The notes under the pieces are model-generated. The model was given only the letters and a program-made list of their open reading frames with translations. It ran no database searches and had not been told where the DNA came from. Both the position numbers and the translations under genes were made by a program. From assembly GCA_951406725.2 (NCBI GenBank), contig OX597820.1:106826001-106890000 (forward strand): a stretch of 64,000 nucleotides of DNA, written 5' to 3'. Source of the stretch: Octopus vulgaris. Taxonomy: Eukaryota. Positions 3,490 to 56,293 of this stretch are shown here, piece after piece (position 1 is the first letter of the stretch; the number at the start of each line of letters is the position of its first letter).

Positions 3490-5057
3490 GTAAGTAATAT
3501 ATTATTTTTAAACTTTTGTGAAAAAAAAATAGTACTTATAAGAGATTTACTTTTTACTTTTTGTTCTTTGTGGCATGCCCAATTATAGTAAGTGTTGATT
3601 TAAAGTCTAACTATTAAGGTTTCACGTAGGAAATAAGTAAAATTACTTGGTAAAGAGGTACAGTATGTAAGAAGTAAATATACAGTTGAAAAATAGACTT
3701 GAATTAAACTGAAGATATCAGAAAAAGATGAAGTCTTCTCCTCTCCACTTCTGTCTACTACCTCTGTTAATGCTGATGAGAAGGTAGAAGGTGCATGACA
3801 GAGTTAATGCAAGAGGGTCAGTGTTAAATGAAGTTTAGATATTTATAAACATAGTTGTTATCCATCGAATAGACTGGAATGTCATTTGTTCAGATGAGAA
3901 AGTGTTGAAAATAAGTTTCGGTTATTATCATTAGAAAATGTATTTGAAGAACCTAGTCTCCTAAATTCCCTTCTAGTACTGAAATGCAAATCTTGAAATG
4001 ATTGTGTAGATCAGTACTGTATCACAGCACTGTACACATTTATGTTTGGTATTGTCTATTAGTCATAACCTATTCATATTGTTAGTTTTCTAGTCTGGGT
4101 TATCTTCTCTGTCATACTGATTCGGTTAATCTGACTCCAGCACTTAAGATAAAAGAGGTTAAAATTGGAGCTTTTGTATATAAAATTTAACAAATTGTTT
4201 GTTACCTTAGTGAAGACATCTAAATGTATGGAAAACATACAGAGTGGTGAGAAGGCTACAGCAGAATTGATGCAAAGAACATCGTCATCATCGCCGCCGT
4301 CGTCATCATCATTTAAAACCATTTTCCACAGTGACATAGATTTGATGGTTCAATTGGATTTAGTAAGTCAGAAGGCTGCGTCAAGCACAGTTTCTACAGC
4401 TGGATGCCCTTCCTAATACCCTGTAAAAAAATGGTACCCTGAACACACTTTACTTTTTTGTGGCACTAGCTCTACTGAAACTCTCAAAAAACTTTGAACC
4501 AGATGAGCATGACTTTATAGGCTGTGTTGGAATTAGGTGAAATGCCAAAATAAAGAATTACTAAGAAAGCTGAACCAAGGTAGGACAGAAAATTTTGCAA
4601 CCCAATTTGCACATAACCCATTGACTGAATGTGAGCAAGTGTAGACACAGGTAATGAATTGTTGCTTTTGCAAATTTACCTGACTCCTAACTTGTTCTTT
4701 ATTTCTCGTTTCTGTTCTCAATTTGCAAATTTTTCACAATGTTTGAGGTCTGCACAGGTAACTTCTACTTTGGTTTTCTGCTGCTATTTGTATCATTTAG
4801 CTGTGCTCTAGCCTGATTTTTGTGGATCGATTTGCTGTGTATCCACAAATTAGATCTTGGTCTTGAGCTGGGGTTTTCAAACCTAACTGCCCTTGTCATT
4901 ATTAACTTGTATGTGGGTAGGTGGGGAGTAAGTTATGTTATTTTTTAGATCACCACTTGAAAATTTCTGTTTCCAAGCTAGGGCCTTCTCTCTTGTATAT
5001 TATCTGGAACTTCCATGAGTGAATTGAGAGAAAATGTAACTTTGCTGCCAATGTTAA

Positions 5058-5273
5058 CCCTTTTGTTACTTCATTTCTCTTGGAACACACTTTTAATTAG
5101 TTTTTGGAAATAATGAAGAATTTAGTAAAATAATTTTGTCATTATTAAGCTGATGTTTGGAACATGAATTAACATGAAATTTTGATGGAAGGTCTTAATT
5201 TAAATTATTTTAAAACAGGCATTTTGTATCATAGAACAAAGAGTAGCCCCAGGAGAGTTGATATCAAAATGGC
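5058..5273. mobile_element. piggyBac-type MITE (family 2), degenerate
   Basis: TTAA|CCCTTTTG start and degenerate CAAAATGG|CTAA end; internal sequence recurs at 46581-46794 and about 22550-22950. Confidence 0.5.
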
Positions 5274-5351
5274 TAATGAAGTACAATAATCCTTCTATGA
5301 TCAGTAATTAATTCATTCTACAAATGTTGTTCTCTTCTCTCTTTATCTTAG

Positions 5352-5530
5352 ATGACAATGGTAATATCAAGTATATGACACTGTGGCTGCCACCAAGATA
5401 CATCTCGTTATATATGTATGCTGGATATGCAATATTCCTCTGCATAGTAATTATCTGCCAGATGCTAAGGAAGCTGTTTACAGCTATGCGGCGATTGCTA
5501 ACCCGAACACAGGTCAGTCATTATGAGTGA
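5352..5530 (+). CDS. Terminal coding exon of the MPPE1/Cdc1-like gene (C-terminal TM helix)
   Basis: ttatcttag acceptor; A+AT restores the frame. Encodes NDNGNIKYMTLWLPPRY, then hydrophobic ISLYMYAGYAIFLCIVIIC and a basic tail to TGA, like the LPR + TM end of MPPE1-family proteins. Confidence 0.7.
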
Positions 5531-7673
5531 TTAGTGATTCACAATGCAATGCCTTAGTCTCGACATCAAACTCTATTGTTGTAAGTATCCTAGGATTATC
5601 CTTTCTAAAACTAATTCTAAACTACACTAAATCACAACAAAACCTAGATCTAAATACTCCTTTTGGATTATATTCCAAACTGATAAAACCATAATCTATA
5701 AATCTGTTATCATTTCCCATCTCTCATAGCATCATTAAGGTTTTGTCTAGTTTTCTTAAAGTCGTATTCCTTTTGACTCTTTTTAACAACATGGTATTTT
5801 CTAATAGTAAACTGGTTCCATGATATAGTGAATAAAATCATTCTAACCATCATCATCATCATCCTTTAGCATCTACTGGCATGGGTTAGATGGTTTCACT
5901 GGAACTGGTAAGCTGGAGAGCTGCATCAGGTTCCAGTCTGATTTGGCAGGGTTTTTACCATGTTATAAATAGTTGTAAATTTCCCTGAGTTTAATCATAA
6001 CCCAGAAATGTATTTTATATCTAGACATCATCATTTTAACATTTGTTTTCTCAATGCTTGCATGAATTAGGCATAATTTATTTAACCCGCTTTGTGTGTG
6101 TGTGTGTGCGTAATGGATTCTCTCATCAATCTCAACATGTAAGGATCCAACAGCATTGCTATTTGCCGACCCACACAGATGACTTTTTTTTTCAGTGGTG
6201 AAGGCTTGTGCTGGCATGGCTAAGACAGTTTGACTGGAACTGATAAACCAGAAAGCTGTACAAGACTCCAGTCTCTTTTGGCTTGGTTTCTTTGGTTGGA
6301 TAGGTTTCTAACACCAACCACTCCATAGAGTGTACTGGGTGTCTTTTCTGTGTTGCCAGCACAGGTACCTTTTACATGTCACCAGCATGGGTGTCTTGCA
6401 CACATCATCAGCACTAGCCATGACTACAATTGTGTGTGTGTGCCATTATGCATACACATATAATGGGCTTCCATACATATTCTGTTTACCAATTGCACTT
6501 GCAAGACATTTGTCAGCCTGAAGCTATAGTAGAAGGCACTTGCCCATAGTGGGAATAATCCAAAAAATGTGTGATTTGTTTTGTGGGTTTTTTTACCTGC
6601 CAGAGATAAGACAAAGCATTTGAGAGTGGTTAACTAGCTGATCCAATATTAATATATTTTAGAATTGGAAAATTTTAATTTCATTTTAAAGAAACATGAC
6701 ATGAATACTTTTCTAATAAATTGACTAAGTTGTAATTTTCAGATTTTTCAAATTTAGTGGATTGAAGATAGTTGTTTAATACTAATTTATGCAGTCGTCA
6801 TCATCGTCATTTTAAAATCCATTTTTCCATGCTGGCATGAGTTAGAAAAATTAACATAAAACTAGTAATTGAATAGGGACCTAATCAAAATTGTACATAC
6901 CACTACTATTTTACTCTCAAAAATTTCATCATCATTATTTCCGTACTTGCATGAGATGGACAGAATTTATTGAGGCAGATTTTCTGTGTCTGGATGCTTG
7001 TTCCTGTTGCCAACTCTCACCTGTTTCCATGTTAGGTAATATTTCCCCATATCCAAATATGTTTCCCTTGAACAAATGACACTGCTTGTAACACAGTGAC
7101 ACTCATTTACAACTATTATGTGATGTCAAGACAAGGAGGCATAAGCATACACAAACACACACACATATATGATGGGCTTCTTTCAGTTCCCATCTCCCAA
7201 ATCCACTCACAAGGCTTTGGTTGGCCTGAGGCTATAGTAGAAGACACTTGCTCAAGACTAAATTGTTCATATTTGTTAATGTTTATAGACCATTAGCAGC
7301 AAGAAGGTGATCACATTCTGTGAAGATGTGGGATGAGAAGGAAATCAGAAAACTGTTTAGTAGAGAAAGTGGAATGTTGAAGGTTTTTCTGGGTATGTGC
7401 TTCACCTCTATTCAAGACATAGATCATTTAGTGCAAATAATTGGTGTAACATTCAGTTTAATGCAAATCCTTGTAATTGGAGCTAAAATGTAGGCACACA
7501 CTTTTTGTAATCAAATCAATCTGTAAGCATAACCTAGTAGAGGGAGAGACTGCTGCAACTAAACAGCAGTACCTAACCAGTTTGGTGCATTTGGATTAGT
7601 TGTTATTTTAGTATTACAGTCATTGTTCTGCTTTAATATACAAATATTGAAATTTTAAGACAGTATACTATCA

Positions 7674-22450: not shown

Positions 22451-23843
22451 GTGAGCACTAAAGAGTAAGAAATAAATTCCTGGCTAGTTAAATATGTGAT
22501 ATGAGTTTGAGTGCTGGTCAGAGCTATTTGACTTCATTTATTATTTGTACCATTTTGTTGTAAAACACTACCTTTGTTTGCATTATGAAAATAATATAGA
22601 ATTTGAAAAAAATATATTTAAACAGACCACATCCAGTCTATCATTTTTACTTCCAAACTGGCCAGATCTAGCTTCCCACACCTACCCTGCAATGTCATTC
22701 TAAAAATAATCGCATCTTTGAAATTTCAAAGCTACAAGGTAATACAAGATTGATTTTTTTAAAATCTGAATAAATAAGCATTACATTTGACAAAGTAATC
22801 TGAGTGCTAAAGGGTTAAAGTAATGTTTGGCACATAAATTAACCCAAAATGTTATTTGATGTAATGTTTTAATTTAGATCATATTAAAAGAGGAAGTTTG
22901 TGACAAAGAACCAGGAGCAGTCTCAGGTGGGTTGGTATCAAAAAGGTTACAGCTCTCATAACTTGAAATAGAATGCCACAATATTCCATTTTCGCAATCT
23001 CTAAAATAAAACACTTTATACGCAATAAAAAAGAAACCTGTTATATAACTCTGAATCTATATATGATTTCTAGGTTGAAACACTATCAGATTTATGCTTT
23101 GTTTTAGTAAATTACAGGCATATATATTTTTAAAATAACTTAGTTGTGATTCTGTTCTGAAAGGATTTCAGTCATGTTGCTAATTCAATTGAATACAACA
23201 TATTACTGGTAATTAGTTTATCTTTGTTGTACACTTCAACAAAGAATGTACTCAAGACAAAAATGCTGCAAGATGTTTCTACCAACATACCACTTTCAGT
23301 ATATAAAACTGAGAATGTGTGTCTGTCTGTTTCCCTAAAACTTGAGAACTACTCAACCAATTTCATTCAAATTTTACACATGCCTTACTTAGGGTCCAGG
23401 GAGTGTCATCAGCAAAAAAAAATGTTCAACTTCTTGCCTAGAGCGAGCCCATAGCAATATCATATCTTCTCCACTATTTCAGTATTATGTGTTAAAAGTG
23501 AAACAAAAACATTTCTCTATTTTATGTCAGATACTTTCACTTTAACAATAAAAATTAGAGATAATAATAACAATTGAAGTATATGTAGTAAGTAATAATT
23601 AAAATCAAACTAAAGTATAATATAATAAGTAAATCTTGACATAACAAAAGTAAAAATAGCAATTGGTATAAAATTGCATCAATGACTTGAACTTGAATAA
23701 GTGGTTTCACATGAATGGGAATAAATTTAAAATAAAATTAGCATGCACAAATGGAATAGTCCAGATGGATAATAAAAAATTAAATTGAAGAAAAGACTAT
23801 TGTCTATAAAGTATACAATGTAGAGAAAAAAGAAGATTTGAAC

Positions 23844-23857
23844 ACCTGGAGGAAATC
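23844..23857 (+). repeat. Target-site duplication copy 1 (ACCTGGAGGAAATC)
   Basis: One mismatch to the identical copies at 26497-26510 and 31697-31710. Confidence 0.85.
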
Positions 23858-25614
23858 TATTTGCGTGTTGTTATCTGTGATTAGACGTTGAAATTTGTTG
23901 TGCAAAGTGATTAATATCGCGCGAGGCATTTGCCTCCACGTGTGAAAACCTTCCGAAGAAGGTGAATTGACCCTCTAGTCATGGCGACTTACGCGGGGGT
24001 CACGGGAAAGAAAAATAATGATTACTCGATAATCGTGAAGGATGTTTTCTTTGAGAAGAGTAAACTCAAAGAATACGAAAAGCTATTCAAAAGGGAGGGT
24101 GATAGCGTGAAGCTAATCCCCCCCGCGAAAGCAAAAGAGGACAAAGAAAACAAAACTGTAACGTATAGAACCCAGGACAAAAGTACAAAGAAACTGGCAA
24201 GAGTGGAGATAGCAGAGATCGAAAAATGTCTGGGAGACATAATGGATAAATCGACCTACGTGAGTAGAGGAAAAAATTTGGTACGGTGGAGGTGAGATGT
24301 GCAACGGAAGAAATTGCAGCCTCACTGGCTACCACTGTTCTAAGAGCGGAAACATTTATAATGTGGCCCTCATACAAGGGAAGAAGAGGGGTCCGGGTTA
24401 AAATCCCGAATATACCCCCAGAAGTAAAAACAGAATGGCTGGCAACAGCTATTCTAGGAGCAGCAGAAGAGGAAGTGGAGGTGGAATCCTTTAAGGAGTC
24501 CAACGCAGTAAATTGGAGAGGATATGGGGTAGAACTGTGTTTGATGGCCACAAAAGAGGACATTGAAAGGTTCCCCTATAGAATAGAAATCGAAGACGAG
24601 AAAACCCTCAGTGTAATTGTAGAGGGAAGAAAGCCAAACTGCTACTTGTGCGGGACAAGGGGGCACATTAAAAAAGAGTGCCCGTTATACGAATTCATAG
24701 CGGAGTATGAGAAGGAAATTGAAGAAAAGAAGAATACGGTAAATGAAAAAGAAAACATAGAAAAGGAGACAAAACAACAAGAGAAAGGAAATAATAAGTC
24801 AACGAAGGAAAAAGAAATAAAAGAAAAGAAAGAAATAGAACCAAAACAGAGTCAGGAAAAGAAAAAGGAAAAAGAAACAACAGGAAAAAAACAAGAGAGA
24901 GATCAGAATCAAACGAAAAGAAAAGACGGCACACAAAAAGAAAAAGAAAAGGAACATAAAACACGAGAGAAAGAGAGAACAGACAAAGAACCAAAAAGAC
25001 AAGAGAAGGAAGAAGAAAGAAAAGAAGGCAAAAAGAGAGAAAGAGAGAAACAAAGAGAGGAGAACAAGGAAGAAGTAAGCCCGAAAAGAAAAACGAGAGA
25101 AAACGTAGGACGGAAACAAGATTACTACAAGTTAATAACCTTCCATTTCAGCCCCGAAATGAAGGAATTGACATGTAGTACGGAGGGACATGTGTGGGTC
25201 AACAGGATGACTGATCAGTGGCAGGAGACTGCTCTGATCCCCGAAGAAAGAGTCGCTGAGTTCCTCAGAGCAGCTGGAGAGAGTGTAATTTTTTACACGG
25301 GTGTTCGAATGAAAGAGCGGCTGCCTGAGGGCTCAGTGATTGACTTTAGAGACTTGAAAGGTATTATGGAATACGTGTGAGATTGTGAGAGGAGAGAGAA
25401 GAAAGAAGAGAAAAAAGAAAAAAAAAATTGTGAACTATATGTGACGAAAATGTAACCTCTCGATTCCGGGGATCGAGTGGGCATTTGCATCTCATTGTAA
25501 ATATTCTTTCATTTGTCATTTTTATTTTTATTTTTTCCTTTTCTTGTCATTTCGCTTTCTTATTTTAAGTTCCCCGATTGTATTGTCCCCTCTATGTTCG
25601 CCCCTTGTGGGTAG
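23858..25614 (+). mobile_element. ORF1-only (HAL1-like) non-autonomous Tx1-type retroelement, copy A
   Basis: Starts TATTTGCGTGT like the LINE at 26511. Has a single gag-like ORF, no EN/RT, and ends in the 3' tail shared with the LINE, clipped after GGGTAG. Confidence 0.8.
23981..25380 (+). CDS. ORF1/gag-like protein of element A (N-terminal region homologous to LINE ORF1, CCHC knuckle, K/E-rich linker, C-terminal domain); one frameshift near 24271
   Basis: ORFs 23981-24295 and 24286-25380 join at an A6 run to give RGKKFGTVEV. Contains CYLCGTRGHIKKEC zinc knuckle. N-terminal half is colinear with ORF1 at 26723. Confidence 0.75.
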
Positions 25615-26495
25615 AAAAGAAGAATACTGTAAATGAAAAAGAAAACATAGAAAAGGAAACAAAACAACAAGAGAAAGGAAATAATAAGTCAATGAAGGAA
25701 AAAGAAATAAAAGAAAAGTAAGAAATAGAACCAAAACAGAGTCAGGAAAAAGAAACAACAGGAAAAATACAAGAGAGAGATCAGAATCAAACGAAAAGAA
25801 AAGACGGCACACAAAAGGAAAAAGAAAAGGAACATAAAACACGAGAGAAAGAGAGAACAGACAAAGAACCAAAAAGACAAGAGAAGGAAGGAGAAAGAAA
25901 AGAAGGCAAAAAGAGAGAAAGAGAGGAGAACAAGGAAGAAATAAGCCCGAAAAGAAAAATGAAGGAAAACGTAGGACGGAAACAAGATTACTGCTTCTAC
26001 AAGTTAGTAACCTTCCATTTCTGCCCTGAAATGAAAGACTTGACATGTAATACGGAGGGACATATATGGGTCAACAGGATGACCGATCAGTGGCAGGAGA
26101 CTGCTCTAATCCCCGAAGAAAGAGTCGCTGAGTTCCTCAGAGCTGCCGGAGAGAGTGTAATATTTTACATGAGTGTTCGAGTGAGAGAGCGGCTGCCTGA
26201 GGGCTCAGTGATGGACTTTAGAGAATTGAAAGCTATTATGGAATATGTATAGAATTGTGAGAAGAAAAAAAAAAAAAAAAAAAGAGAAAAAAGAAAATAT
26301 TGTGAAATATATGTGACGAAAATGTAACCTCTCGATTCCGGGGATCGAGTGGGCATTTACATCTCATTGTAAATATTCTTTCATATGTCATTTTTTACTT
26401 TTATTTTTTCCTTTTCTTGTCATTCGCTTTCTTATTTTAAGTTCCCCGATTGTATTGTCCCCTCTATGTTCGCCCCTTGTGGGTAGTAATAAAAT
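25615..26495 (+). mobile_element. 5'-truncated sister copy B of the ORF1-only element
   Basis: Homologous to 24725-25614 with substitutions and in-frame indels; complete 3' tail ...GGGTAGTAATAAAA; C-terminal ORF 25959-26252. Confidence 0.85.
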
Positions 26496-26496
26496 C

Positions 26497-26510
26497 ACCT
26501 GGAGGAAAGC
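26497..26510 (+). repeat. Target-site duplication copy 2 (ACCTGGAGGAAAGC)
   Basis: Identical to 31697-31710; lies between the 3' tail of B and the 5' end of the LINE. Confidence 0.85.
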
Positions 26511-26722
26511 TATTTGCGTGTATAGTAAGTTATTATATTTTGCCGTCGTATTTATTCTCTCCGTTATATTCTACTGTGTGTCTACCTGTCTTTGTTTATT
26601 GTTGTACAACTGTTGAAGTCAGCCTTCGTGCGAGGACTCCGTGGTGGTGTTCCCCCCTTCGTGGGGGAAAAAATATCATTTATCTTGGATTTACCAAGGG
26701 CTTGTTAAGCCAGTTGTTCGAG

Positions 26723-28069
26723 ATGGAATCCCCCATCTCATATTCTCCCGTGACTAGTGAAGAAGAATCTCTGGCGGTGTTGCCAAAGAAAAAAGAGGCG
26801 GTGTCGCCAAAGAAAAAAGAGGCGGTGGCGCCAAAGAAAAAGGAAACCCCTGCACCAGCACCAGCACCAGCGAAAAAATTCTCAGAAGTAGCTGGCAAGA
26901 AAATCAAAAAAATAAACGTCGAAGACTTGGAAAAATATGTGGACTGTGTTACAAAAGAGGGCACGGAAGTGACAGTGGTCTCAAACGCCCAAAAACATGA
27001 AGAAATCGAAAAAAGAAGAATAATCTATAAGACCTTTAATACGACAACCAAAATGATACAAAAAATTGAGGAAAAAAAAATCGAGAATTGTTTAAAACCA
27101 TTAATGGACAAGATCACATACATCAACAGAGAAAAGAGATACGGCACAGTAGAGGTGCGTTTCACAACAGAGGAGATAGCAAAAAAACTGTCGATGGAGC
27201 CAATAAAAGCGGAGAATATTGTTCTCCTCCCCTTGTATAGAGGAAAAAGAACATCGAAAATCACGATGAATAACATTCCGCCAGAGGCAAATGCCGAATG
27301 TCTGGTGGCAGCAGTCATGGTAGGCCTGGAGGAAAAAATAAACATCCTCCAGGCCACAGTAGAGGAGGAGGAATTTTGGAAAGGGCAGCGGATAGTAATA
27401 GCCATTCAGGCAGAAATTCAAACACTGGAGGAGATTCCAGAAACCCTAAAAATAAGTGAAGACGATAGAATAACAGTTTTCGTAGAGGGCAGAAAGCCGA
27501 GGTGCTTCGGCTGCGGCAAGAAGGGTCATGTAAGAGCGGAATGCCAACCCCAACCCAAACCGCAGGAAGCACCTCAGCCAGGTGAAAAAGAAGATGAAGT
27601 GTCACCAGAAGCAGCGCCGGGTGGCCCAGAAGAGACGACTGAAGGTGTGGAAGTGACAGAGGCAGCAGAACCAGTGGCAGAGGAAAAAAAGAGCAATGAG
27701 GAGGGGTGGTCAAAAATCACCAGAAAAAAAAGAAAAACGGAAACCACCCCTCCAAGAGTGATCCAAAAGAAGAAAAGAGAGTCGATGAACCCATATATGG
27801 CCGTTAAGGCATCAAACAACAGACTCGGGAACGTGTTGGCAGCTATGGCCAAAGTGGAAAGAATAGGAAAAAAGAATGACTATATAGTTTACAGAATAGG
27901 CCGGAAGGATTACGGGCGGATAAAGTCCGAATTCTTTCATGACGTAGGCCCGCTCAGAATGGATTTAACATCTCCATATATATTCGAGGGCCTACGTCAG
28001 ACTCCCCCACGAGGCCCAGAAAAAGAGATAAACAAAGAAGAAAAAGAGAAAACCGAACCACTGATATAA
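26723..28069 (+). CDS. Tx1 ORF1 (gag-like, CCHC zinc knuckle), 448 aa, intact
   Basis: ATG at 26723 (MESPISY...); three AVxPKKKE repeats plus PAPAPAPA; CFGCGKKGHVRAEC knuckle. Confidence 0.85.
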   Translation: MESPISYSPVTSEEESLAVLPKKKEAVSPKKKEAVAPKKKETPAPAPAPAKKFSEVAGKKIKKINVEDLEKYVDCVTKEGTEVTVVSNAQKHEEIEKRRIIYKTFNTTTKMIQKIEEKKIENCLKPLMDKITYINREKRYGTVEVRFTTEEIAKKLSMEPIKAENIVLLPLYRGKRTSKITMNNIPPEANAECLVAAVMVGLEEKINILQATVEEEEFWKGQRIVIAIQAEIQTLEEIPETLKISEDDRITVFVEGRKPRCFGCGKKGHVRAECQPQPKPQEAPQPGEKEDEVSPEAAPGGPEETTEGVEVTEAAEPVAEEKKSNEEGWSKITRKKRKTETTPPRVIQKKKRESMNPYMAVKASNNRLGNVLAAMAKVERIGKKNDYIVYRIGRKDYGRIKSEFFHDVGPLRMDLTSPYIFEGLRQTPPRGPEKEINKEEKEKTEPLI

Positions 28070-28078
28070 AGGTAAGTA

Positions 28079-31000
28079 ATGGATTACATTTATGTTGGTT
28101 GTTTGAATGTGCGCGGCCTGGGAGCAGGCTGGAAGCAAGGTCGCTTCCTGCATGATATCAGGTCGCGTAATTTAGATGTTATTGTTGCTACAGAAACCCG
28201 GTTAGAGGGGCCAAGAGGTCTACTCCCGCTGTTTGACGGCTATGAGAGTTTTTTCTCTCCTGGCGGAAGTGGGGTGTTGGTCCTAATAAAAAGAAACCGG
28301 GTTTCTGAGAAAAAGTTAATTTTTGCAGATCCAGAAGGTAGGCTGGTCGTCATGGATTTGACATTCAGTAACGGTAAAGTTATCAGACTGGTTGCAATAT
28401 ACGCACCCAACCATACAGGGCAAAGTGATTATTTTCGTGAACTAGAAAACTTTCTTGGTACTTCGCATTCATTAGTTGTGCTAGGTGACTTTAACACAAT
28501 TTGCAAAGCGGATGTAGATTGTGTTGGCTTGCGTTCAGATAGAAAAGGTAACAGTGGCTTCATGGAACTGCTAAGCCGCTTTGAGCTAGCAGATCCTTAT
28601 AGGCTGGAATTTCTGAACGCTCCATTGTGGACATGGTCAAACAGCGACGGATCTTCCAGGTCATAATTAGATAGAATACTAATTAGAAAAGTAGACAGAA
28701 AAATAGCTAAGTGTCCACAGTTTTACCCGATCAGCTACAGTGATCATAAAATGGTCACCTGTAAGCTTGACATAGATAAGGTTAAAAATAGAGGATCCGG
28801 TTACTGGAAACTTAATACGTCCCTTTTGGCGATTAAGGAGTACAAAGACCGGATTAGGGATATAATTCAGAGGGCACTATCTGGTACCATCATTAATAAC
28901 AAATGGTGGTACGCCCTCAAACGAGCCATCAAGTTCGAGTCAATTAGATATAGCATAGGAGTAGTGGCTAGAGAGGCTAGAAGGGAAACTACTCTAGTTA
29001 AGGAATTAGAGGAAGCCTTGAAAACTGGCTCTGCGGCTCAGGTGGCGTCCAAGAGACTGGTGTTAAACCAGCACCTCGAGGCCAAACACATGGGCTGCAT
29101 TGTCAGGGCTAGAATCCGCCATATGGGATGTGAAGGAATCAACGCCGTGAGATGGGCCCGAGTGGTGGAAGCACAGCATGGTAACGATGCCACGATTCGA
29201 TCTTTGACGAACCAACAAGGTGAGTTGATAAACGAACCCGAGGAGATGTGTGAGGCCTTTCAGGAGCACTTCGCTCAGCTTTTCGGTGAGTGCGGCGGAC
29301 TGGATAGGAGGAGGGCCTTTACGGACCTACTTGACGGGCTGCCGCGCTTATCGGGGCGAGATGCGGAGGGCTGTGAAGGGCCAATCACGCCTGAGGAGGT
29401 GGTTGAGGCAATGGCGGACTGCGGCGCGGGCAAGGCGCCGGGTTTGGATGGTCTACCCTATGAGTTATATAAGAGTATGCCAGACTTGTTCGGGCACCTA
29501 CTAGCGGAGGTCTATGCGAACTGGCAGCAGAACGGGCTTATACCCAGATCTGTGCGCCGGGGAGTAGTGACTCTCGTCAGAAAGGACTCGAGCAAGGGGG
29601 AGTGCATTGATAATTTCAGGCCCATCACTCTGCTAAACACAGAGTTGAAGATTTTGGCCAAAGTGTTATCGAAAAGATTGGCGCGTGTCGCGGATGGTCT
29701 GATCGGAGGGGCACAGACATGTGCCGTTCCGGGCAGATCCATTCAGGATAATCTCCATCTAATGCGGTACACTATAGAGGGGTTTAATAGTGATTCTGGC
29801 AAGGGTGGGGCACTGGTCCATTTAGACCAATCTAAAGCTTTTGATAGGGTCGACCATCATTACCTGGTATCTGCCCTGGCACGGTTCGGGCTGAGCCTTG
29901 GCTTCCTCAGGTGGATTATCCAAATTTATGATAACATCGACTCGGTAGTTCGGGTGAACGGCTTCTTGTCGAAGCCGTTCAAAATCAAACGCTCGGTTCG
30001 TCAAGGGTGTCCGCTCTCCCCGCTTTTGTACGTGATGGCTCTTGAGCCATTACTGCGAAAACTGAGCGGCATCCTGAGACAGCCAGGTAATGGAAAATCA
30101 GTGTCAGCGTATGCGGATGACATCACCATCATCGTAACCAAAATGGACCACCTATGTAAAGTAGGCAAGGCCATAGAGGTTTACGAGACGGTGACAGGAG
30201 CAAAAGTTAATCGCGAAAAGTCAGTCGGCTTGCAACTCGGCACCTGGAGAGGCAAGTCGATGCCTCCTGACAGCGTCGTGGGACGTTGGACGGAGGGTCC
30301 GATTAAATTGCTAGGGGTCTGGTTCGGTCCAGACCTCCAAATAGAGAAGAATTGGGGCGAGGTAATGAGCAAGGTGGCTGCAGTAGCCAAGACCTGGTCT
30401 TGGCGGTGGCTATCCTTGAAAGGGAGGGCGGAGGTGGCCAATGTGTTTATCGCATCGGTTATCACCTACCGCCTTTCCGTCGTTCCTTGCCCTGATTCGT
30501 GGTTGATCAAGTTGGAAAGACAGCTCTTCTACTTCTTGTGGAAGGGCCGGAAACCACTTGTGAAACGCTCTACTTGCTGTCAACAACCGTTAAAGGGTGG
30601 GCTAGGGATGCCTTGGCTGATGATGCGCTGAGGTTAAGACATCTGTGGCTCTATCTGGATGGTGAACGGGTGTGGTCTTCGCTAGCAAAACTGATGTTTC
30701 CCAAGTTCACTAGTTTCGGTGGATGGGAAACCTGGCTGAATCGTAGATCGAAACTTGGTACTTGGTACACGGAGTGTCGCAAGGCTCTCCTGCTATTCCG
30801 TCGCTCGGGTAACGCCTGCGGTGGGGGTTCCACCACATTCTTCTATAGAGGGTTGGTAGAGGCGGAATGTGAAGATACCTTGGGAGAAGCCCTAGGTCTC
30901 GACGATAATCAGCTGGCCAGTCTGTTCTGACGTACGTTCAAGCCGAAGACACTGGACAACTTCCAGAAGTCCCTGGCATGGCAATGTTACAGAGGAGCTC

Positions 31001-31452
31001 TACCTGTTCGGGATAAACTCGCAAGGCACGGAGGCCAAGACAGTCCGATATGTCCAAGATGCGGGTGGGATAGGGAAACCGTCCCGCACGCTATTGTTCA
31101 TTGTCCGGACGTGTCTGAGGTGTGGGTTTATACCGAACAGCTGTTGTCAGGTACACGAAGAGTACAGCTGTCGACTGAGTCGATTACAAAAATTGACCCA
31201 CCGGATTTCCTCGCGAAAGAAGGTAAGTTTTGTTTTCTCGTTGTAGTAGCAATTGCGAAAGAGGTGATATGGAAGACGAGAATGAAAGGTCTACAGTCAG
31301 GCAAGTTCATCTCCGGCCCTGGTTTGATGAATTATTTCATCTTTCACCTGAAAAGGAAGATAGGGCTGGAGAGAATATGCCTGACTAGGAGAGTGTACGA
31401 AGAACGATGGAAAGATGTAGCACGTAAGTTGCGAGTGAAAGATACAACATAA
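28079..31452 (+). pseudogene. Tx1 ORF2 (AP endonuclease + reverse transcriptase + C-terminal zinc finger) with 3 visible lesions
   Basis: EN motifs NVRGL, IYAPN, LGDFN, LDR, SDH; GYWKLN linker; RT motifs PGLDG, FRPITLLN, LDQSKAFDRV, VRQGCPLSP, YADD (30110); CPRC...H....C finger. In-frame stops at 28664 and 30928 and a frameshift near 30625. Confidence 0.9.
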
Positions 31453-31696
31453 ATGTAAACCAAACGAAACCAAAAGTATCAGTGGGGAGGCGGGGCTCGT
31501 GGGGTCCGAGCTAAACCCGCACCCACTCCACCCGTAATGTCTTACGGTCTGTTCCATCATTCGATTTTGTGTCTATTTTGTAATTTCATGTAAATTTTTA
31601 AATTCGATTTATTGTAAAAACCCATTCGTGTGTCTGACCCCACATCAGATTGTATTGTCCCATCTATGTTCGCCCCTAGTGGGTAATAATAAAACA

Positions 31697-31710
31697 ACCT
31701 GGAGGAAAGC
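31697..31710 (+). repeat. Target-site duplication copy 3 (ACCTGGAGGAAAGC)
   Basis: Follows the LINE 3' tail and continues directly into the ORF1 relic. Confidence 0.85.
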
Positions 31711-32169
31711 ACCATTGAAAATATGAAAGATATCTAACCAGAGGTGGTAAGTTCGCCACAATAGAAGCAAGGTTCGAGTCAACGGAGCATGCAAGGGAGT
31801 ACTCGACTCGAACTCGCAAATTGGAAATATTTTATTTTTACCTTTATATCTGGGACGTGCTGGATAAAAATTTTTAATGCCCCCCACCTAGAAGTTGAGG
31901 TAGGCTGGATTGTAGCCATGCTTCTATACAAGAGGGAGCACAAGATACAATTGATCGAAATTGCAAGAGACGGGCTAACAATTCCAGTCTGTTATATATT
32001 TTGAGTATTGTTATCACTAGCGATATCAAGATATAATTTTGTATTTTATGTGTAGATGTATATATATAGATGTACATGTAATATGTACACATATATATAT
32101 ACATGCACTAGCACTATGACCCGGCAACGACGGGTCATAATGCTAGTAATGATATAAAGATTAATTATA

Positions 32170-32340
32170 CAAGGGCTGTATGGTTAAGAAGTCTGCTTTC
32201 CAACCATGTAGCTTGAGATTCAGTCTCCCTACATGGCACCTTGGGTAAGCGTCTTCTACTATATCCCTGGATTGATCAAAGCCTTGTGAATGGATTTGGT
32301 AGCCAGAATCAGAAAGAAGCCCATCATATATATGCGTGTG
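32170..32340 (+). mobile_element. tRNA-headed SINE (5' part)
   Basis: ggctgtatggttaagaag head and conserved body caaagccttgtgaatggatttggtag...aaagaagcccatc; many copies in the window (e.g. about 7165, 10485, 11455, 21295, 42310, 43690). Confidence 0.7.
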
Positions 32341-34135: not shown

Positions 34136-36063
34136 CATCATCATCATCATGGTTTAACGTCCGCTTTCCATGCTAGCATGAGTTGGACGATTTGACTGAA
34201 GTCTGGCGAACCAGATGGCTGCACCAGGCTCCAATCTGATCTGGCAGAGTTTCTACAGCTGGATGCCCTTCCTAACACCAACCACTCCAAGAGTGTAGTG
34301 GGTGCTTTTACGTGCCACTGGCATGAGGGCCAGCCAGGCGGTACTGGCAATGCCCACACTCAAATGGTGTTTTTTACGTGCCACCTGCACAGGAGCCAGT
34401 CCAGCGGCACTGGCAATGACCTCATTCAAATGTTTTTTCACGTGCCACCGGCATTTTTACATGACACCAGCACAGAAGCCAGTCAGCTTCTCTGGCAACG
34501 ATCACACTCAGATGGTACTCTTAGCGCTCCACTGGCATGGGTGACAGTCATCGAATTTGATTCGATTTCGATTTCACTTGCCTCAAGCAGAGTTTAGTGT
34601 CCAATGAAGGAAAGGTACGTATAAGTGGGCTGGTTACAGCCCTGGCATAAGCCACGCGTTATGGTCTCACTTGGCTTGCCGGGTCTTCTCACATACAGCA
34701 TATTTCCTAAGGTTTCGGTCACTAGTCATTGCCTCGGTGAGGCCCAATGTTTGAAGGTCATGCTTCACCACATCATCCCAGGTCTTCCTGGGTCTACCTC
34801 TTCCACAGGTTCCCTCAACTGCTAGGGTGTGGCACTTTTTCACACAGCTATCAACATCTATTCTCGCCACATGACCATACCAGCGCAATCGTCTCTCTTG
34901 CACACCACATCTGATGCTTCTTAGGTTCAACCTTTCTCTCAGGGCACTAACACTCTGTCGAGTATGCACACTGACATTACACATCCATCGGATCATACTG
35001 GCTTCATTCCTTGCAAGCTTACGCATGTCCTCAGCAGTCACGGCCCATGTTTCACTGCCATGTAGCATGGCTGTTTGTACACATGTGTCGTACAGTCTAC
35101 CTTTTACTCTGAGTGAGAGGCCCTTTGTCACCAGCAGAGGTTAGAGCTCTCTGAACTTAGCCCAGTCTATTCTTATTCTAGCAGCTACACTTTCAGTGCA
35201 CCCTCCCCTGCTACTGACTTGGTCACCTAGGTAATGGAAGCTATCAACTACTTCTAGTTTTTTTCCCTTGAATGTGGCGGAAGTTGGTCTCTGGACATTT
35301 TCAGTGTTATTTATAGCACCAGAGCATCTGCCACATACAAAAACTATCCTCCCAGTTAGCCTTCCTTTGATATTGCTGTACCTCTTGTGTCCATAGCTTA
35401 CACTGGGTACATCTTATGGAGTTTCTACCTATGCCTTTTCTACAGATCGAACAGGGCCATCTACCTGAAGGCATTTGTGACTTGTCTACCTTCCTACTTA
35501 TTAGGACTTTGGTTTTAGCTAGGTTGACGCTAAGGCCCTTCAATTCTAATCCTTGCTTCCACACCTGAAACTTCTCCAGTTCTGATAGTGACTCAGCAAT
35601 TACAGCAAGGTCATAAGCATAGAGGAGCTCCCGGGGGCATGCTGTCTTGAATTCCTCTGTTATTGCCTGGAGGACTATGATCGAAAGGAAGGGGTTGAGG
35701 ACTGAACCTTGTTGGACCCCTACCTCTACCCGGATTTCTTCCCTGTACTCGTTGCCAGCTCTCACCTTACTATCCCTAGTTTCCTCATTGACCACCAGAT
35801 AAGGGATCGGAGGACCCTGTCAAAGGCTTTCTCCATGTCAACAGAAGCCAGGTACAGGGGTTTATCTTTGTCTAGGTATTTCTCCTGCAGCTGTCTTACC
35901 AGAAATATAGCATCAATGGTGCTTTTCCCTGCATCTCATCTAAGCTGACTCTCTCCCTAATTAGTTGGGCTATAACCCACTCCGTGACCTTCATTACCGG
36001 ATCTAACAACTTGATGCCTCAGTTATTATTTGTATCTAAAGCGTTACCTTTACCTTTGTAGCA
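34136..36063 (-). mobile_element. 5'-truncated RTE-like LINE with (CAT)n tail
   Basis: Minus ORFs 35307-35795 (GVQQGSVL, PHD-like cysteines) and 34667-35131 (MLHGSETW, RLRWYGHV, GRGRPRKTW); 3' UTR with short tandem units. Confidence 0.9.
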
Positions 36064-45480: not shown

Positions 45481-46528
45481 TCATCATCATCATCATCATC
45501 GTTTAGCGTCCGTTTTCCATGCTAGCATGAGTTGGACGGGTCAACTGGGGTCTGTGAATCTGGAAGGCTTCGTCAGGCCCAGTCAGATCTGGCAGTGTTT
45601 CTACGGCTGGATGCCCTTCCTAACGCCAACCACTCCGCGAGTGTAGTGGGTGTTTTTTACGTGCCACCTGCACAGGTGCCAGACAGAGCTGGCGAACGGC
45701 CACGAACGGATGGTGCTTTTACGTGTCACCGGCACGGGGCCAGGCGATGCTGGCAACGGACACGAACGGATGGTGCTTTTACGTGCCACCGACACGGGGC
45801 CAGACAGAGCTGGCAACCGGCCACGAACGGACGGTGCTTTTACGTGTCACCGGCACGGGGGCCAGCCGAGGCTGGCAACGGACGCGAACGGATGGTGCTT
45901 TTACGTGCCACCGACACGGTTGCCAGACAGAGCTGGCAAACGGCCACGAGCGGACAGTGCTTTTACGTGTCACCGGCACGGGGGCCAGCCGAGGCTGGCA
46001 ACGGACACGGACGGATGGTGCTTTTACGTGCCACCGACACGGGGCCAGACAGAGCTGGCAAACGGCTACGAATGGATGGTGCTTTTACGTGTCACCGGCA
46101 CGGGGGCCAGCCGAGGCTGGCAACGGACACGGACGGATGGTGCTTTTACGTGCCACCGACACGGGGCCAGACAGAGCTGGCAAACGGCCACGAACGGATG
46201 GTGCTTTTACGTGCCACCGACACGGGGCCAGACAGAGCTGGCAAACGGCTACGAATGGATGGTGCTTTTACGTGTCACCGGCACGGGGGCCAGCCGAGGC
46301 TGGCAACGGACACGGACGGATGGTGCTTTTACGTGCCACCGACACGGGGCCAGACAGAGCTGGCCAACGGCCACGAACGGACGGTGCTTTTACGTGTTAC
46401 TGGCACGGGGCGAGGCGAGGCTGGCAACGAACACGAACGGATGGTGCTTTTATGTGCCACCGACACGGGGCCAGGCAGAGCTGGCAAACGGCCATGAGCG
46501 AATGGTGCTTTTACGTATCACCGGCAAT
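45481..46528 (-). mobile_element. RTE 3'-UTR-only insertion with an expanded minisatellite
   Basis: (CAT)n tail at 45482-45500; 45500-45665 is the reverse complement of the RTE tail at 56115-56290. Confidence 0.85.
45650..46528. repeat. About 60-bp GC-rich minisatellite, about 15 units of two mostly alternating variants
   Basis: Core GGTGCTTTTACGTG followed by CCACCGACACGGGGCCAGACAGAGCTGGC or TCACCGGCACGGGGGCCAGCCGAGGCTGGC. Confidence 0.95.
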
Positions 46529-48649: not shown

Positions 48650-49061
48650 GTATGTATTAAGTTTTTAAGTTAATGAAAGTGATGATGAGATAGATATGAG
48701 TTTGTGTGTGTGCTCACGTCCTCTGCATCATGCAACAATTGTAAGCAAGCATCACTGTCATACAAACTGTTGTTTCCAATCTTTCCTAAAAATACATGTG
48801 GCCACAGGGAAATATTACCTTGCTTGGAAACAGGTAAGTGTTAGTGACAAGAAGGATATCCAGCTGGAGGAAATCTGTCAAAAAATTACATCTGACCCAT
48901 GCAACCATGATAAAGTGGGTGTTAAAATGATAACTTATATTTTAAACACAGATGTGTATTTGACATGCTGAACATATATTTATATGTTCTTTTTGATATT
49001 GATATTCCTTTGATGAACTATTGATTATCTTAAAAAGTACTTAAGTGTTTTATAAATATCT

Positions 49062-50133
49062 GAAAATGTACAGAAAATAGATTCCATCAACTGCCAGGGG
49101 GATAAAGTAGAGGCAGTTGATAGCTTTTGTTATCTAGGTAATCATGTTAGTAGCCGAGTTGGGTGCTTTGAGAGAGTAGCTGTGAGAATAAGATTAGGCT
49201 GGGCAAAGTTGAGAGAGCTCCTACCTCTGCTGACAACAAAGGGCCTCTTCCTCAGAGTGAAAGGCAGATTGTATGATGCCTGTGTATGAACAGCTATGCT
49301 ACATGGCAGTGAAACATGGTCAGTGACAGCCAAGGACATGCATAGGCTTAAAAGAAATTAAGCCAGCATACTTCACTGGATGTGCAATGTCAGTGTACAT
49401 GTTTGACAGAGTGTAAGCATCTTGAGAGAAAAGTTAGGCATAAGAGGCTTCAGATGTGGTGTGCAAGAGAGATGACTGTGCTGGTATGGTCATGTGATGT
49501 GTATGGACGAGGACAGTTGTGTAAAGAAGTGTGGATCTCTAACTGTAGAAGGTACCTGTGGTAGAGGTAGACCCAGGAGTACATGGGACGAGGTGGTGAA
49601 GCATAATTTTTGAAGTTTGGGACTCACAGAGGCAATGACTGGTGACAGAGACCTTTGACAATATGCTGTGCTTGAGAAGACCTGTCGATCCAAGTGAAAT
49701 TGTAGTCATGGCTGATGTTAGTGTCATGTAACTGGCACCCATGTTGGTGGCATGTAAAAAGCACCTTTTGAACATTAGGCCTCACAGAGGTAAATTAGCT
49801 GATGCTAGTGACACATGAAAAACTCCTTTCAAGTATTGTGCTTCATGGAGGCAATGACTGAGACCTTTGGATTATGTCATGCTTGAGAAGACCCATCAAA
49901 CTAAGTAAAATCACAGTTGTGGCAGATACTGCTGTCACACAAATGGCACCTGTGCTGGTGGCATGTAAAAGCACCTATTACACTCTTGGAGTGGTTGGTG
50001 TTAGGAAGGGCATCCAGCCAAAGAAACCAAGCCAAATCAGACTGGAGTCTGGTGAAGCCTTCCAGCTTGCCAGCACTGGTCAAACCATCCAACCCATGCC
50101 AGCATGGACGATGAACATTAAATGATGATGATG
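49062..50133 (+). mobile_element. 5'-truncated RTE-like LINE in FLII intron 5
   Basis: Homologous to 55180-56293; (GAT)n tail at 50122-50133. Confidence 0.85.
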
Positions 50134-51972: not shown

Positions 51973-52962
51973 GTTAGTCATCCTCTTAATTATCATTCCC
52001 TGTAAATTTCATTACTAACAACATATAATTGTTTTCTTTTGTGTGTAATTCCTAATTGCCTTTTAATCTTAAACCAAATAAAGTTCCTATGTAGGTTCCA
52101 TTTCCTCTCCCTTTATGATCTTCATAACAACATTCAGCACCTGCAAATTACTGAAAATACATCTTAGAAATCATAGGACAGTTGACTGTTTAACATTTTG
52201 GTAGGGTTTACAAAAACTGTAAACAAACTGAACCCAAATTTATTGTAGTTAGCATTACAGCATTCTTGCCTTCCTTCCTGCACAAGTTGTATTCTTCCTC
52301 CTCTGTTTAAGCCATTACAAAAAAAAAAAATTGTGTTGACTCTTAATATATTCAAAAATGTTACTGGAATTTTCTAGAAAAAAAAACAAAACAATCTCTC
52401 AAGTATATCAAAAGATTCCGTATGTACAGAGTATGCATTTATTTGTTTTAGGTTAATTAAAATATATTTGTGACATGCTTTAACTTTAAAAGGCAAATTT
52501 ACTACAGTTACCATGGAGAATAAAAATTCTCTCTTATTGTAAACGGTGTAAAAATGCCATCTCTTTCCAGTGCTTCACTCTAACAGTGAATTTGCTTTTA
52601 GAAGTTAAAGTCAGTCACAAACCTATCTTAACTAACCTACAGTTTGTTTATTCCTAATCAGTGCTTGGCACTGATGCTGCTATTTTTATTCCAGCCCGGC
52701 AATCCACTAGCACCACTCAGTCATTGATGTTGACTGTTTTTAGTTAAATCTTTGGCTTTGAATCTGTCCAGGATTATCTTCCTTTGAGGAAGACTAAAGA
52801 ACCAGAAACATGTGTCTGGGAATTGCTAGAGGGAAGCACTGGGCAAATTATGATGTTTTTACACCTTTTAACATCGAGAGAATTTTTTTCTCAATGATAA
52901 CTGCAGTGAAATTCACTGCCTTTAGAAGTTAAAATATATCACAAACATATTTTAACTAACCT

Positions 52963-55900: not shown

Positions 55901-56293
55901 ATCAATGGAAATTGTAGCTGTGATACCAGTGCCGGTGGCACATAAGAGAACCATCTGAATGTGGCCGTTGCCAGCGCAACCCCGACTGGCCTCCGTGCCG
56001 GTGGCACGTAAAAAGCACCATCCGATCGTGGCCGTTTGCCAGCCTCGTCTGGCCTCCGTACCGGTGGTACGTAAAAAGCACCATCCGACCGTGGCCGTTT
56101 GCCAGCCTTGTCTGGCACGTAAAAAGCACCCACTACACTCACGGAGTGGTTGGCGTTAGGAAGGGCATCCAGCCGTAGGAACTTGCCAGATCAGACTGGG
56201 CCTGGTGCTGCCTTCTGGCTTCCCAGACCCCAGATGAACCGTCCAACCCATGCTAGCATGGAAAGCAGACGCTAAACGATGATGATGATGATG
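52963..56293 (+). mobile_element. Long 5'-truncated RTE-like LINE (EN-RT-PHD-like insert-thumb, 3' UTR, (GAT)n) with AACCT TSD
   Basis: EN motifs AYAPQ, AGDFNGHVG, QIDYIL; RT motifs QFGFVPG, FIDMEKAF, LSPLLF, YADD; stops and frameshifts; AACCT at 52958-52962 and 56294-56298. Confidence 0.93.

What the first reader, a model, noticed from the sequence alone, without database searches (positions are those of the whole stretch)
23858..26495. ORF1-only 'half-Tx1' non-autonomous partner sharing both termini with the autonomous LINE
Seen: element A (about 1.76 kb) encodes only a gag-like protein with a CCHC knuckle and has no EN/RT. It begins with the same TATTTGCGTGT as the LINE, ends in the same tail, and sits at the same target. 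Its ORF1 is only distantly similar to the LINE ORF1 (TVEVR..TEEIA, NIPPE and VEGRKP.C are shared) and the UTR interiors differ, so it is not a recent deletion derivative. Known analogy: HAL1 (half-L1) elements. Inference: an old, protein-coding, site-specific parasite that supplies its own ORF1p and borrows ORF2p in trans.
Basis: partly seen in the sequence, partly recalled or inferred. Interest (0 to 1): 0.8.

Follow-up and report, generated by a model that had tools for sequence, protein, structure and literature searches.

The report
Ancient RNA-binding-gene-only retrotransposon clan in octopus
This octopus jumping gene keeps only an RNA-binding protein gene, which has stayed under purifying selection through a long history, and it stacks head-to-tail with complete retrotransposons at one spot inside another transposon, likely borrowing their copying enzyme.

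Summary
Real, and larger than the window shows. Element A (23856-25614) is one copy of a 1.78-kb family that encodes only ORF1 (two predicted RRM-like domains plus a CCHC knuckle). It belongs to a deep ORF1-only clade (A1-A5, 48-100% identity, support 100/99) that includes Octopus bimaculoides proteins. In 0 of 146 clade copies examined did ORF1 run into its own endonuclease/RT. ORF1 dN/dS is 0.06-0.27. The frameshift in the window copy is absent from three short-read runs, so it is probably an assembly error. A shares about 45 nt of 3' tail with an APE-RT LINE whose ORF1 is only 34% identical. Both insert at one site inside a non-autonomous Helitron-like repeat, in polar arrays of up to 22 A copies. 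5'-truncated A copies with 14-18-bp target duplications show LINE-type insertion. One correction: the shared 5' 11-mer is a variable junction (5 of 50 A1 junctions), not a fixed family end. The kind is known (HAL1, HeT-A, Ag-Sponge). I found no report of a site-specific L1/Tx1-type member this far from its partner. Trans-mobilisation is inferred, and Tx1 membership is only weakly tested.

The parts
23298..23842 (+). 5' half of the host non-autonomous Helitron-like repeat; its last ~60 nt begin a decayed, captured ORF1-like fragment
   Evidence: 1299 first-look candidates; TC...TATATAAAACTGAG starts in sister copies; fragment matches ORF1 families at E down to 1e-16
23843..23855 (+). left copy of the target CACCTGGAGGAAA, followed by a variable 5' linker
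   Evidence: empty site intact in 24 of 30 Helitron loci
23856..25614 (+). element A, subfamily A1, full length except the last ~10 nt of the tail
   Evidence: 97-100% matches on many contigs
23981..25380 (+). ORF1 (465-466 aa in intact copies): two predicted RRM-like domains, CCHC knuckle at 24640-24681, K/E-rich linker, conserved ~95-aa C-terminal domain; 1-nt loss in the A-run after 24270 in this assembly
25449..25484 (+). conserved 3' UTR hairpin of the A clade, absent from the LINE
   Evidence: 18 variants, 95.5% of cells paired, 4 of 11 pairs with changes on both sides
25576..25614 (+). 3' tail shared with the LINE (cut short in this copy)
25615..26495 (+). A', older 5'-truncated A1 copy with a complete tail
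   Evidence: 90.7% identity to A, old haplotype with a 6-nt insertion
26496..26508 (+). middle copy of the target
26509..31695 (+). autonomous-type LINE (ORF1 26723-28069; ORF2 from 28079 with APE endonuclease, RT and zf-RVT; this copy broken), the likely ORF2p donor family
   Evidence: Pfam PF03372, PF00078, PF13966; many sister copies with a 1132-codon open frame
31696..31708 (+). right copy of the target
31709..32146 (+). 3' half of the Helitron-like host: rest of the decayed ORF1 fragment, terminal hairpin 32118-32136 and CTAG 32143-32146

Best explanation
Element A is a member of an old, independently evolving clade of non-LTR retrotransposons that encode only ORF1 and likely retrotranspose by borrowing ORF2p (endonuclease plus reverse transcriptase) from co-resident L1/Tx1-type LINEs. 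Shown: ORF1-only structure across the clade, purifying selection on ORF1, a 3' tail nearly identical to the LINE's, a clade-specific 3' UTR hairpin, target duplications and 5' truncations, co-insertion with the LINE at one site in a Helitron-like repeat, and arrays whose oldest copies lie at the 3' end. Inferred: A's RNA is coated by its own ORF1p; the tail recruits the LINE's ORF2p; that enzyme nicks the Helitron site and primes reverse transcription there; each new copy enters at the 5' junction, where the upstream Helitron sequence is still present, so arrays grow leftwards; and the insertion site follows whichever LINE subfamily supplies ORF2p.
For: Copies: 40 of 40 scored matches at 97-100%; 48 full-length copies in 7 arrays, up to 22 in one; 24 more A1 ORF1 hits in six further stretches. 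No own ORF2: 0 of 102, 0 of 24, 0 of 20 basal copies, while 19 LINE-type ORF1s in the census were followed by EN/RT. Selection: dN/dS 0.06-0.27 in 10 of 10 A-clade pairs over residues 1-238; LINE ORF1 controls 0.06-0.08. One clade, support 100/99, apart from all LINE ORF1s and including an O. bimaculoides protein. Three 5'-truncated copies at unrelated sites carry 18-, 14- and 14-bp duplications. 12 of 13 close LINE relatives end at the same Helitron site. A-clade copies also sit with a different LINE subfamily at a second repeated target. The most diverged A copy is 3'-most in 6 of 7 arrays, and 2 of 5 further arrays show the same gradient, none the reverse.
Against: No mobilisation assay. 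No run on record as RNA, so transcription is not shown. Only 2 of 49 assembled copies have an open ORF1; the case that this is assembly error rests on short-read contigs over two homopolymer runs, which show only the common form. Searches score at most 150 candidates, so a rare autonomous A-clade parent could be missed. One decayed copy (L213) runs into the last third of an ORF2, though only after a broken 3' UTR hairpin and without EN or RT core. The genomic context of the O. bimaculoides proteins was not seen. The match between endonuclease variant and target has exceptions (L163, L164 and one copy in the C10 array).
Confidence: 0.85

Rival explanations
1. A-clade ORF1 evolved under selection inside autonomous LINEs that are now extinct or unsampled, and each ORF1-only subfamily is a separate, short-lived deletion product whose own ORF1 no longer matters.
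For: dN/dS between subfamilies cannot by itself say where selection acted. Searches are capped. Most assembled copies are frameshifted.
Against: Subfamilies from 48% to 100% identity all end ORF1 in the same C-terminal domain followed by the same hairpin and a tail, which points to one loss of ORF2. dN/dS is 0.11 even between young and old A1 (13.5 synonymous against 5.5 non-synonymous differences). No parent was found in 146 copies.
Confidence: 0.07
2. A is a mutualist of the HeT-A type: its ORF1p, not only the LINE's endonuclease, helps deliver both elements to the Helitron site.
For: Long-term selection on ORF1, mixed polar arrays, and the HeT-A/TART precedent (PMC2173066, abstract read).
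Against: The LINEs carry their own selected ORF1 and sit alone at the site in L153, L154 and L159. The target tends to follow endonuclease loop variants. A1 copies occur at two different targets.
Confidence: 0.12
3. The arrays and the copy number come mainly from DNA-level processes (unequal crossing-over, or Helitron rolling-circle copying of an occupied element), not from repeated retrotransposition of A.
For: Adjacent copies are about twice as similar as copies from different arrays. Six neighbouring C7 copies differ by 0-1 substitutions. No A-to-G strand bias, which an edited RNA intermediate might leave, was seen.
Against: Arrays mix haplotypes that recur on other chromosomes, mix families in different orders and show age polarity. 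Single and 5'-truncated copies have their own target duplications. This rival may explain some runs within arrays but not the family.
Confidence: 0.06

Closest known systems
HAL1 (half-L1) of mammals (PMC5753468 and PMC5786205, passages read; the original Bao and Jurka 2010 paper was not held)
   Same: Non-autonomous non-LTR element that encodes only ORF1p and depends on an L1-group partner.
   Different: HAL1 is described as arising several times from L1. Here one clade persists across at least two octopus species, is only 34% identical to any partner ORF1 seen, and is site-specific and arrayed.
HeT-A with TART of Drosophila (PMC2173066, abstract; PMC5786205, passage)
   Same: ORF1/Gag-only element in polar head-to-tail arrays mixed with an RT-bearing partner at a dedicated site.
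   Different: Jockey clade and telomeric, with a host function. HeT-A and TART Gags are described as very similar, and HeT-A Gag is shown to target its partner. None of this is shown for A, which inserts internally with target duplications.
Ag-Sponge of Anopheles (named in PMC5786205 and PMC3414825, passages)
   Same: ORF1-retaining non-autonomous LINE.
   Different: CR1 clade, described as an internal-deletion product.
Tx1L/Tx1D of Xenopus; Tx1-Mar and SINEU-3 of crocodilians (PMC4494074, passages and section 15)
   Same: Tx1 LINEs that target a site inside a non-autonomous DNA transposon, with non-autonomous partners forming tandems around a target duplication.
   Different: The hosts there are piggyBac, Mariner, Harbinger or LTR elements and the partner is non-coding. 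Here the main host is Helitron-like and the partner codes for ORF1p.

Membership tests
ORF1-present non-autonomous LINEs (HAL1, HeT-A, Ag-Sponge class) | Encodes ORF1 but no EN/RT | tested here: met
   0 of 146 A-clade copies have their own EN/RT
ORF1-present non-autonomous LINEs (HAL1, HeT-A, Ag-Sponge class) | Multiplies as a unit with LINE-type hallmarks (target duplication, 5' truncation) | tested here: met
ORF1-present non-autonomous LINEs (HAL1, HeT-A, Ag-Sponge class) | ORF1 kept functional | tested here: met
   dN/dS 0.06-0.27; frame open in read contigs; protein expression not tested
ORF1-present non-autonomous LINEs (HAL1, HeT-A, Ag-Sponge class) | Mobilised in trans by an autonomous LINE's ORF2p | not testable with these tools
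   inferred from the shared tail and shared targets
HAL1 in the strict sense | Internal-deletion derivative of an identifiable L1 whose ORF1 it resembles | tested here: not met
   29-36% identity to the LINE ORF1s compared; C-terminal domains do not align (shallow profiles); no parent found
Tx1 clade (partner LINE) | Two ORFs: CCHC ORF1; ORF2 with APE endonuclease, RT and C-terminal zinc domain | tested here: met
   (this layout is shared with other L1-group elements)
Tx1 clade (partner LINE) | RT groups with reference Tx1 elements | tested here: inconclusive
   No labelled references for a tree. 1 of 120 listed RT hits is named 'Transposon TX1 uncharacterized 149 kDa protein' (38% identity, E 1e-80), the only clade name listed; none
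Tx1 clade (partner LINE) | Preference for one site in a repeated sequence | tested here: met
   12 of 13 close relatives end at the Helitron site
Non-autonomous Helitron (host) | 5' TC start, 3' hairpin then CTAG, no terminal inverted repeat (features recalled from general knowledge) | tested here: met
   exact hairpin motif in 16 of 30 loci, followed by a CTAG-type end in most
Non-autonomous Helitron (host) | Autonomous RepHel partner with matching ends | not tested
   not searched
HeT-A-type mutualist | Own ORF1p targets the partner's particle | not testable with these tools
   needs co-expression and localisation

The most novel reading that the evidence does not exclude
The A clade is a free-living ORF1 lineage older than the LINEs that now move it. 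It lost ORF2 once, before Octopus vulgaris and O. bimaculoides split, kept its own RNA chaperone and its own 3' UTR hairpin, and has survived by repeatedly exchanging its last ~45 bases to match new ORF2p donors, inheriting each donor's target site. That would be a natural experiment showing that a LINE's ORF1p-RNA pairing is private while ORF2p recruitment needs only a short swappable tail.
Probability: 0.5. Interest if true: 0.72.

Novelty: new variant of a known kind. Interest (0 to 1): 0.58.

Why it matters
Why a non-autonomous LINE keeps ORF1 at all is an open question, argued so far from HAL1, HeT-A and Ag-Sponge. This system offers young copies of both partners, a defined target present in over a thousand mostly empty hosts, several ORF1-only families, and LINE subfamilies with nearly identical ORF2 but different endonuclease loops and targets. 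It makes three things directly testable: whether ORF1p acts in cis on its own RNA through the 3' UTR hairpin, whether a ~45-nt tail suffices to recruit ORF2p, and what sets the target. A short site-specific passenger would also interest people building retrotransposon-based insertion tools. It also warns that these ORFs are annotated as octopus genes.

Tried and rejected
Rfam scan of 23200-32300: 14 weak matches, none at a gathering score, no ribozyme. I considered an HDV-like ribozyme in the 5' UTR by eye and found no convincing fit. Long 5' inheritance from the neighbouring copy: not supported; adjacent-to-between-array difference ratios were 0.35-0.57 in all seven windows, with no special drop at the 5' end. 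RNA-editing marks: none in 64 A1 copies (A>G 23, T>C 12, per-site ratio 0.96), 28 LINE copies or 36 Helitron controls. Copy number from the 24-nt tail: 107 exact matches, but 11 of 20 newly fetched ones were LINE tails, so it is not a count of A. Expression: no RNA holder listed; two runs guessed to be RNA hold A contigs, which is no evidence either way. C-terminal domain: no Pfam hit above cut-off, no PDB sequence hit, no profile match to LINE C-termini; its structure prediction had not returned. The wide fold search did not run because the machine was busy. Atlas searches gave only generic CCHC and EN/RT clusters. Earlier scan notes by sequence and by place: nothing. No complex prediction was run, as no binding is claimed.

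Full report
Setting. The window lies at G000:C7:106826001-106890000 in a 2.8-Gb genome. All 8 protein hits to A's ORF1 carry the source name Octopus vulgaris. The region reads, on one strand: host repeat 5' half, target, A, truncated A', target, LINE, target, host repeat 3' half.

The observation. The 11-mer, the tail, the target and the distant ORF1 likeness are all present. The LINE has ORF1 and an ORF2 with APE endonuclease, RT and zf-RVT domains; this copy is broken, but many sister copies have a 1132-codon open frame. A joins A' without a target, over 2 nt of microhomology, and lacks its last ~10 tail bases.

A is a family. A search with its 5' half gave 239 candidates; the 40 scored were 97-100% identical. 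All 30 loci returned held a ~1.75-kb unit followed by another A-type unit, a LINE 5' end or the host repeat. Seven arrays read end to end held 48 full-length copies, 22 of them in one array. Six more stretches added 24 A1 ORF1 hits. Three 5'-truncated copies at unrelated sites have 18-, 14- and 14-bp flanking repeats, the usual mark of target-primed reverse transcription (general knowledge).

Is ORF1 alive? Only 2 of 49 aligned copies are open; 39 of 49 lack one C in a C-run at codon 46, and the window copy lacks one A at codon 97. Copies with no substitutions between them differ in these runs. Short-read contigs from 3 of the 3 runs that cover A carry the extra A and list no loss in the C-run (a fourth run covered only the host). 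I read the frameshifts as mostly homopolymer errors of the assembly; contigs show only the common form. Pairwise Nei-Gojobori dN/dS over residues 1-238 is 0.06-0.27 in 10 of 10 A-clade pairs (the lowest has saturated dS), against 0.06-0.08 for two LINE pairs. The K/E-rich middle is freer, and the C-terminal domain gives 0.16-0.40, or 1.06 in one near-identical pair. The model of residues 1-239 (pLDDT 79) matches tandem RRM proteins weakly but consistently (best E 7.5e-5, TM 0.31).

No own ORF2. In the first census, 102 A-clade ORF1 hits were scored after dropping 1 spurious antisense hit. None ran into EN/RT: three had EN/RT within 2.5 kb, all beyond the A-type hairpin or tail, while 19 LINE-type ORF1s were followed by EN/RT. 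The same held for 24 hits and for 20 basal copies found with the most distant member. One decayed copy, L213, joins the last third of an ORF2 in the middle of its broken hairpin; I read it as a deletion inside an A-LINE tandem. These loci were picked from ranked lists capped at 150 rows, so the census is not complete.

Age and origin. In a 37-row tree the A subfamilies form one clade (100/99) apart from all LINE ORF1s; deeper nodes are open. The clade includes P0182 from O. bimaculoides, and P0189 and P0205 from that species have their best matches in it. PMC13282606 cites 13.3-33.5 million years for that split (part 1 of 3 read). Whether those copies also lack ORF2 was not seen. Members share a C-terminal domain and a 3' UTR hairpin with 95.5% of cells paired and 4 of 11 pairs changed on both sides (related sequences can exceed the shuffle control). 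One loss of ORF2 is the simplest reading.

Target. The flanks belong to a ~1-kb repeat with 1299 candidates and Helitron-like ends. Of 30 loci, 24 were empty, 5 held A and 1 was a deletion variant; the sample is biased towards the window's copy. The site lies within a decayed ORF1-like fragment about 30-41% identical to the families compared. Of 13 LINE loci with endonuclease at least 94% identical to the window's, 12 end at this site; four more distant ones lie elsewhere. In the deletion variant, insertions fall at a different sequence at about the same distance from the same upstream A-rich stretch. This suggests recognition upstream of the nick (inference) and would explain leftward growth: the most diverged A is 3'-most in 6 of 7 arrays. 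A second repeated target is used by a LINE subfamily with a different loop after the YAP motif, and A1-, A2- and A4-type copies sit there too. The loop-target match has exceptions.

Ends. The 3' tails of A1-A3 track the LINE's at over 90% while ORF1 identity is 34%; basal subfamilies have other tails. The 5' junction is not fixed: 25 different linkers in 50 A1 junctions, only 5 with the window's form, against 22 of 25 canonical targets where the sequence runs into the host's 3' half. Linkers are often shared within an array across families, and some recur on other chromosomes, even in a single insertion whose right target is canonical (L017). An RNA leader that carries the target, plus copying from the resident junction, could explain this; it is untested.

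Prior knowledge. Kojima 2018 (PMC5786205, passages) lists three ORF1-present non-autonomous LINE groups, from the Jockey, L1 and CR1 clades; the word Tx1 does not occur in that text. Tx1 LINEs targeting DNA transposons are known (PMC4494074). The O. vulgaris repeat annotation lists 13 recently active L1-Tx1 families, and its main text has no occurrence of ORF1, non-autonomous or nested; its supplements and library were not seen and may hold these families. Searches listed no paper on an ORF1-only Tx1-type or Helitron-targeted family, judged from listings for most. Subscription journals and Repbase entries are outside the library. It is not independent support, and I did not see its RNA-editing signal in my copies.

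Verdict. A real, recently active, ORF1-only retrotransposon clade of a known kind, unusual in its age, its distance from its partner and its site-specific stacking. Confidence in the mechanism 0.85; interest 0.58.

Noticed in passing
L005, L007, L080, L155-L157, L160-L162, L169, L170: A second, unrelated ORF1-only clade ('B', 26-36% to A, two subfamilies 60% apart, dN/dS 0.12) with its own hairpin and tail; it enters the same Helitron about 10 nt further upstream, always 5' of A and LINE copies in the arrays seen.
   Followed up: partly
L131, minus strand, about 4000-5560 in element orientation: Chimeric ORF1-only element: an ORF1 head outside the A clade joined to an A-type C-terminal domain, hairpin and tail.
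   Followed up: partly
window 23790-23855 and 31709-32000: The Helitron-like host carries ~130 codons of a decayed ORF1 from a further family, so the LINEs target a captured piece of a relative's gene; the source family was not found.
   Followed up: partly
junctions in L061-L080 and L201-L210: Hypervariable 20-25-nt linker that changes stepwise along arrays, mostly by transversions, and sometimes forms an imperfect fold-back of the target; mechanism unexplained.
   Followed up: partly
L191-L199, L131-L134, L138: Second shared target inside another repeat with a mariner-like remnant (motif recalled), used by a LINE subfamily with a different endonuclease loop; a third loop variant forms LINE-only arrays on C27 and C30.
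   Followed up: partly
L065, L076, L112, L120: LINE subfamilies with closely similar ORF2 (mostly 87-98%) carry different 5' UTRs and ORF1s (69-85% identity), suggesting 5'-module exchange.
   Followed up: no
L116:8837-9600; L162:9286; L164:9380: Short repeats elsewhere end in a tail much like the LINE's, probably SINEs using the same machinery.
   Followed up: no
window 45655-46526, 34306-34454, 55986-56116: Arrays of a 61-66-bp GC-rich unit, one of 14 copies.
   Followed up: no
window 34667-35953, 49045-49697, 52910-55729: Other dispersed repeats on both strands with several ORF fragments.
   Followed up: no
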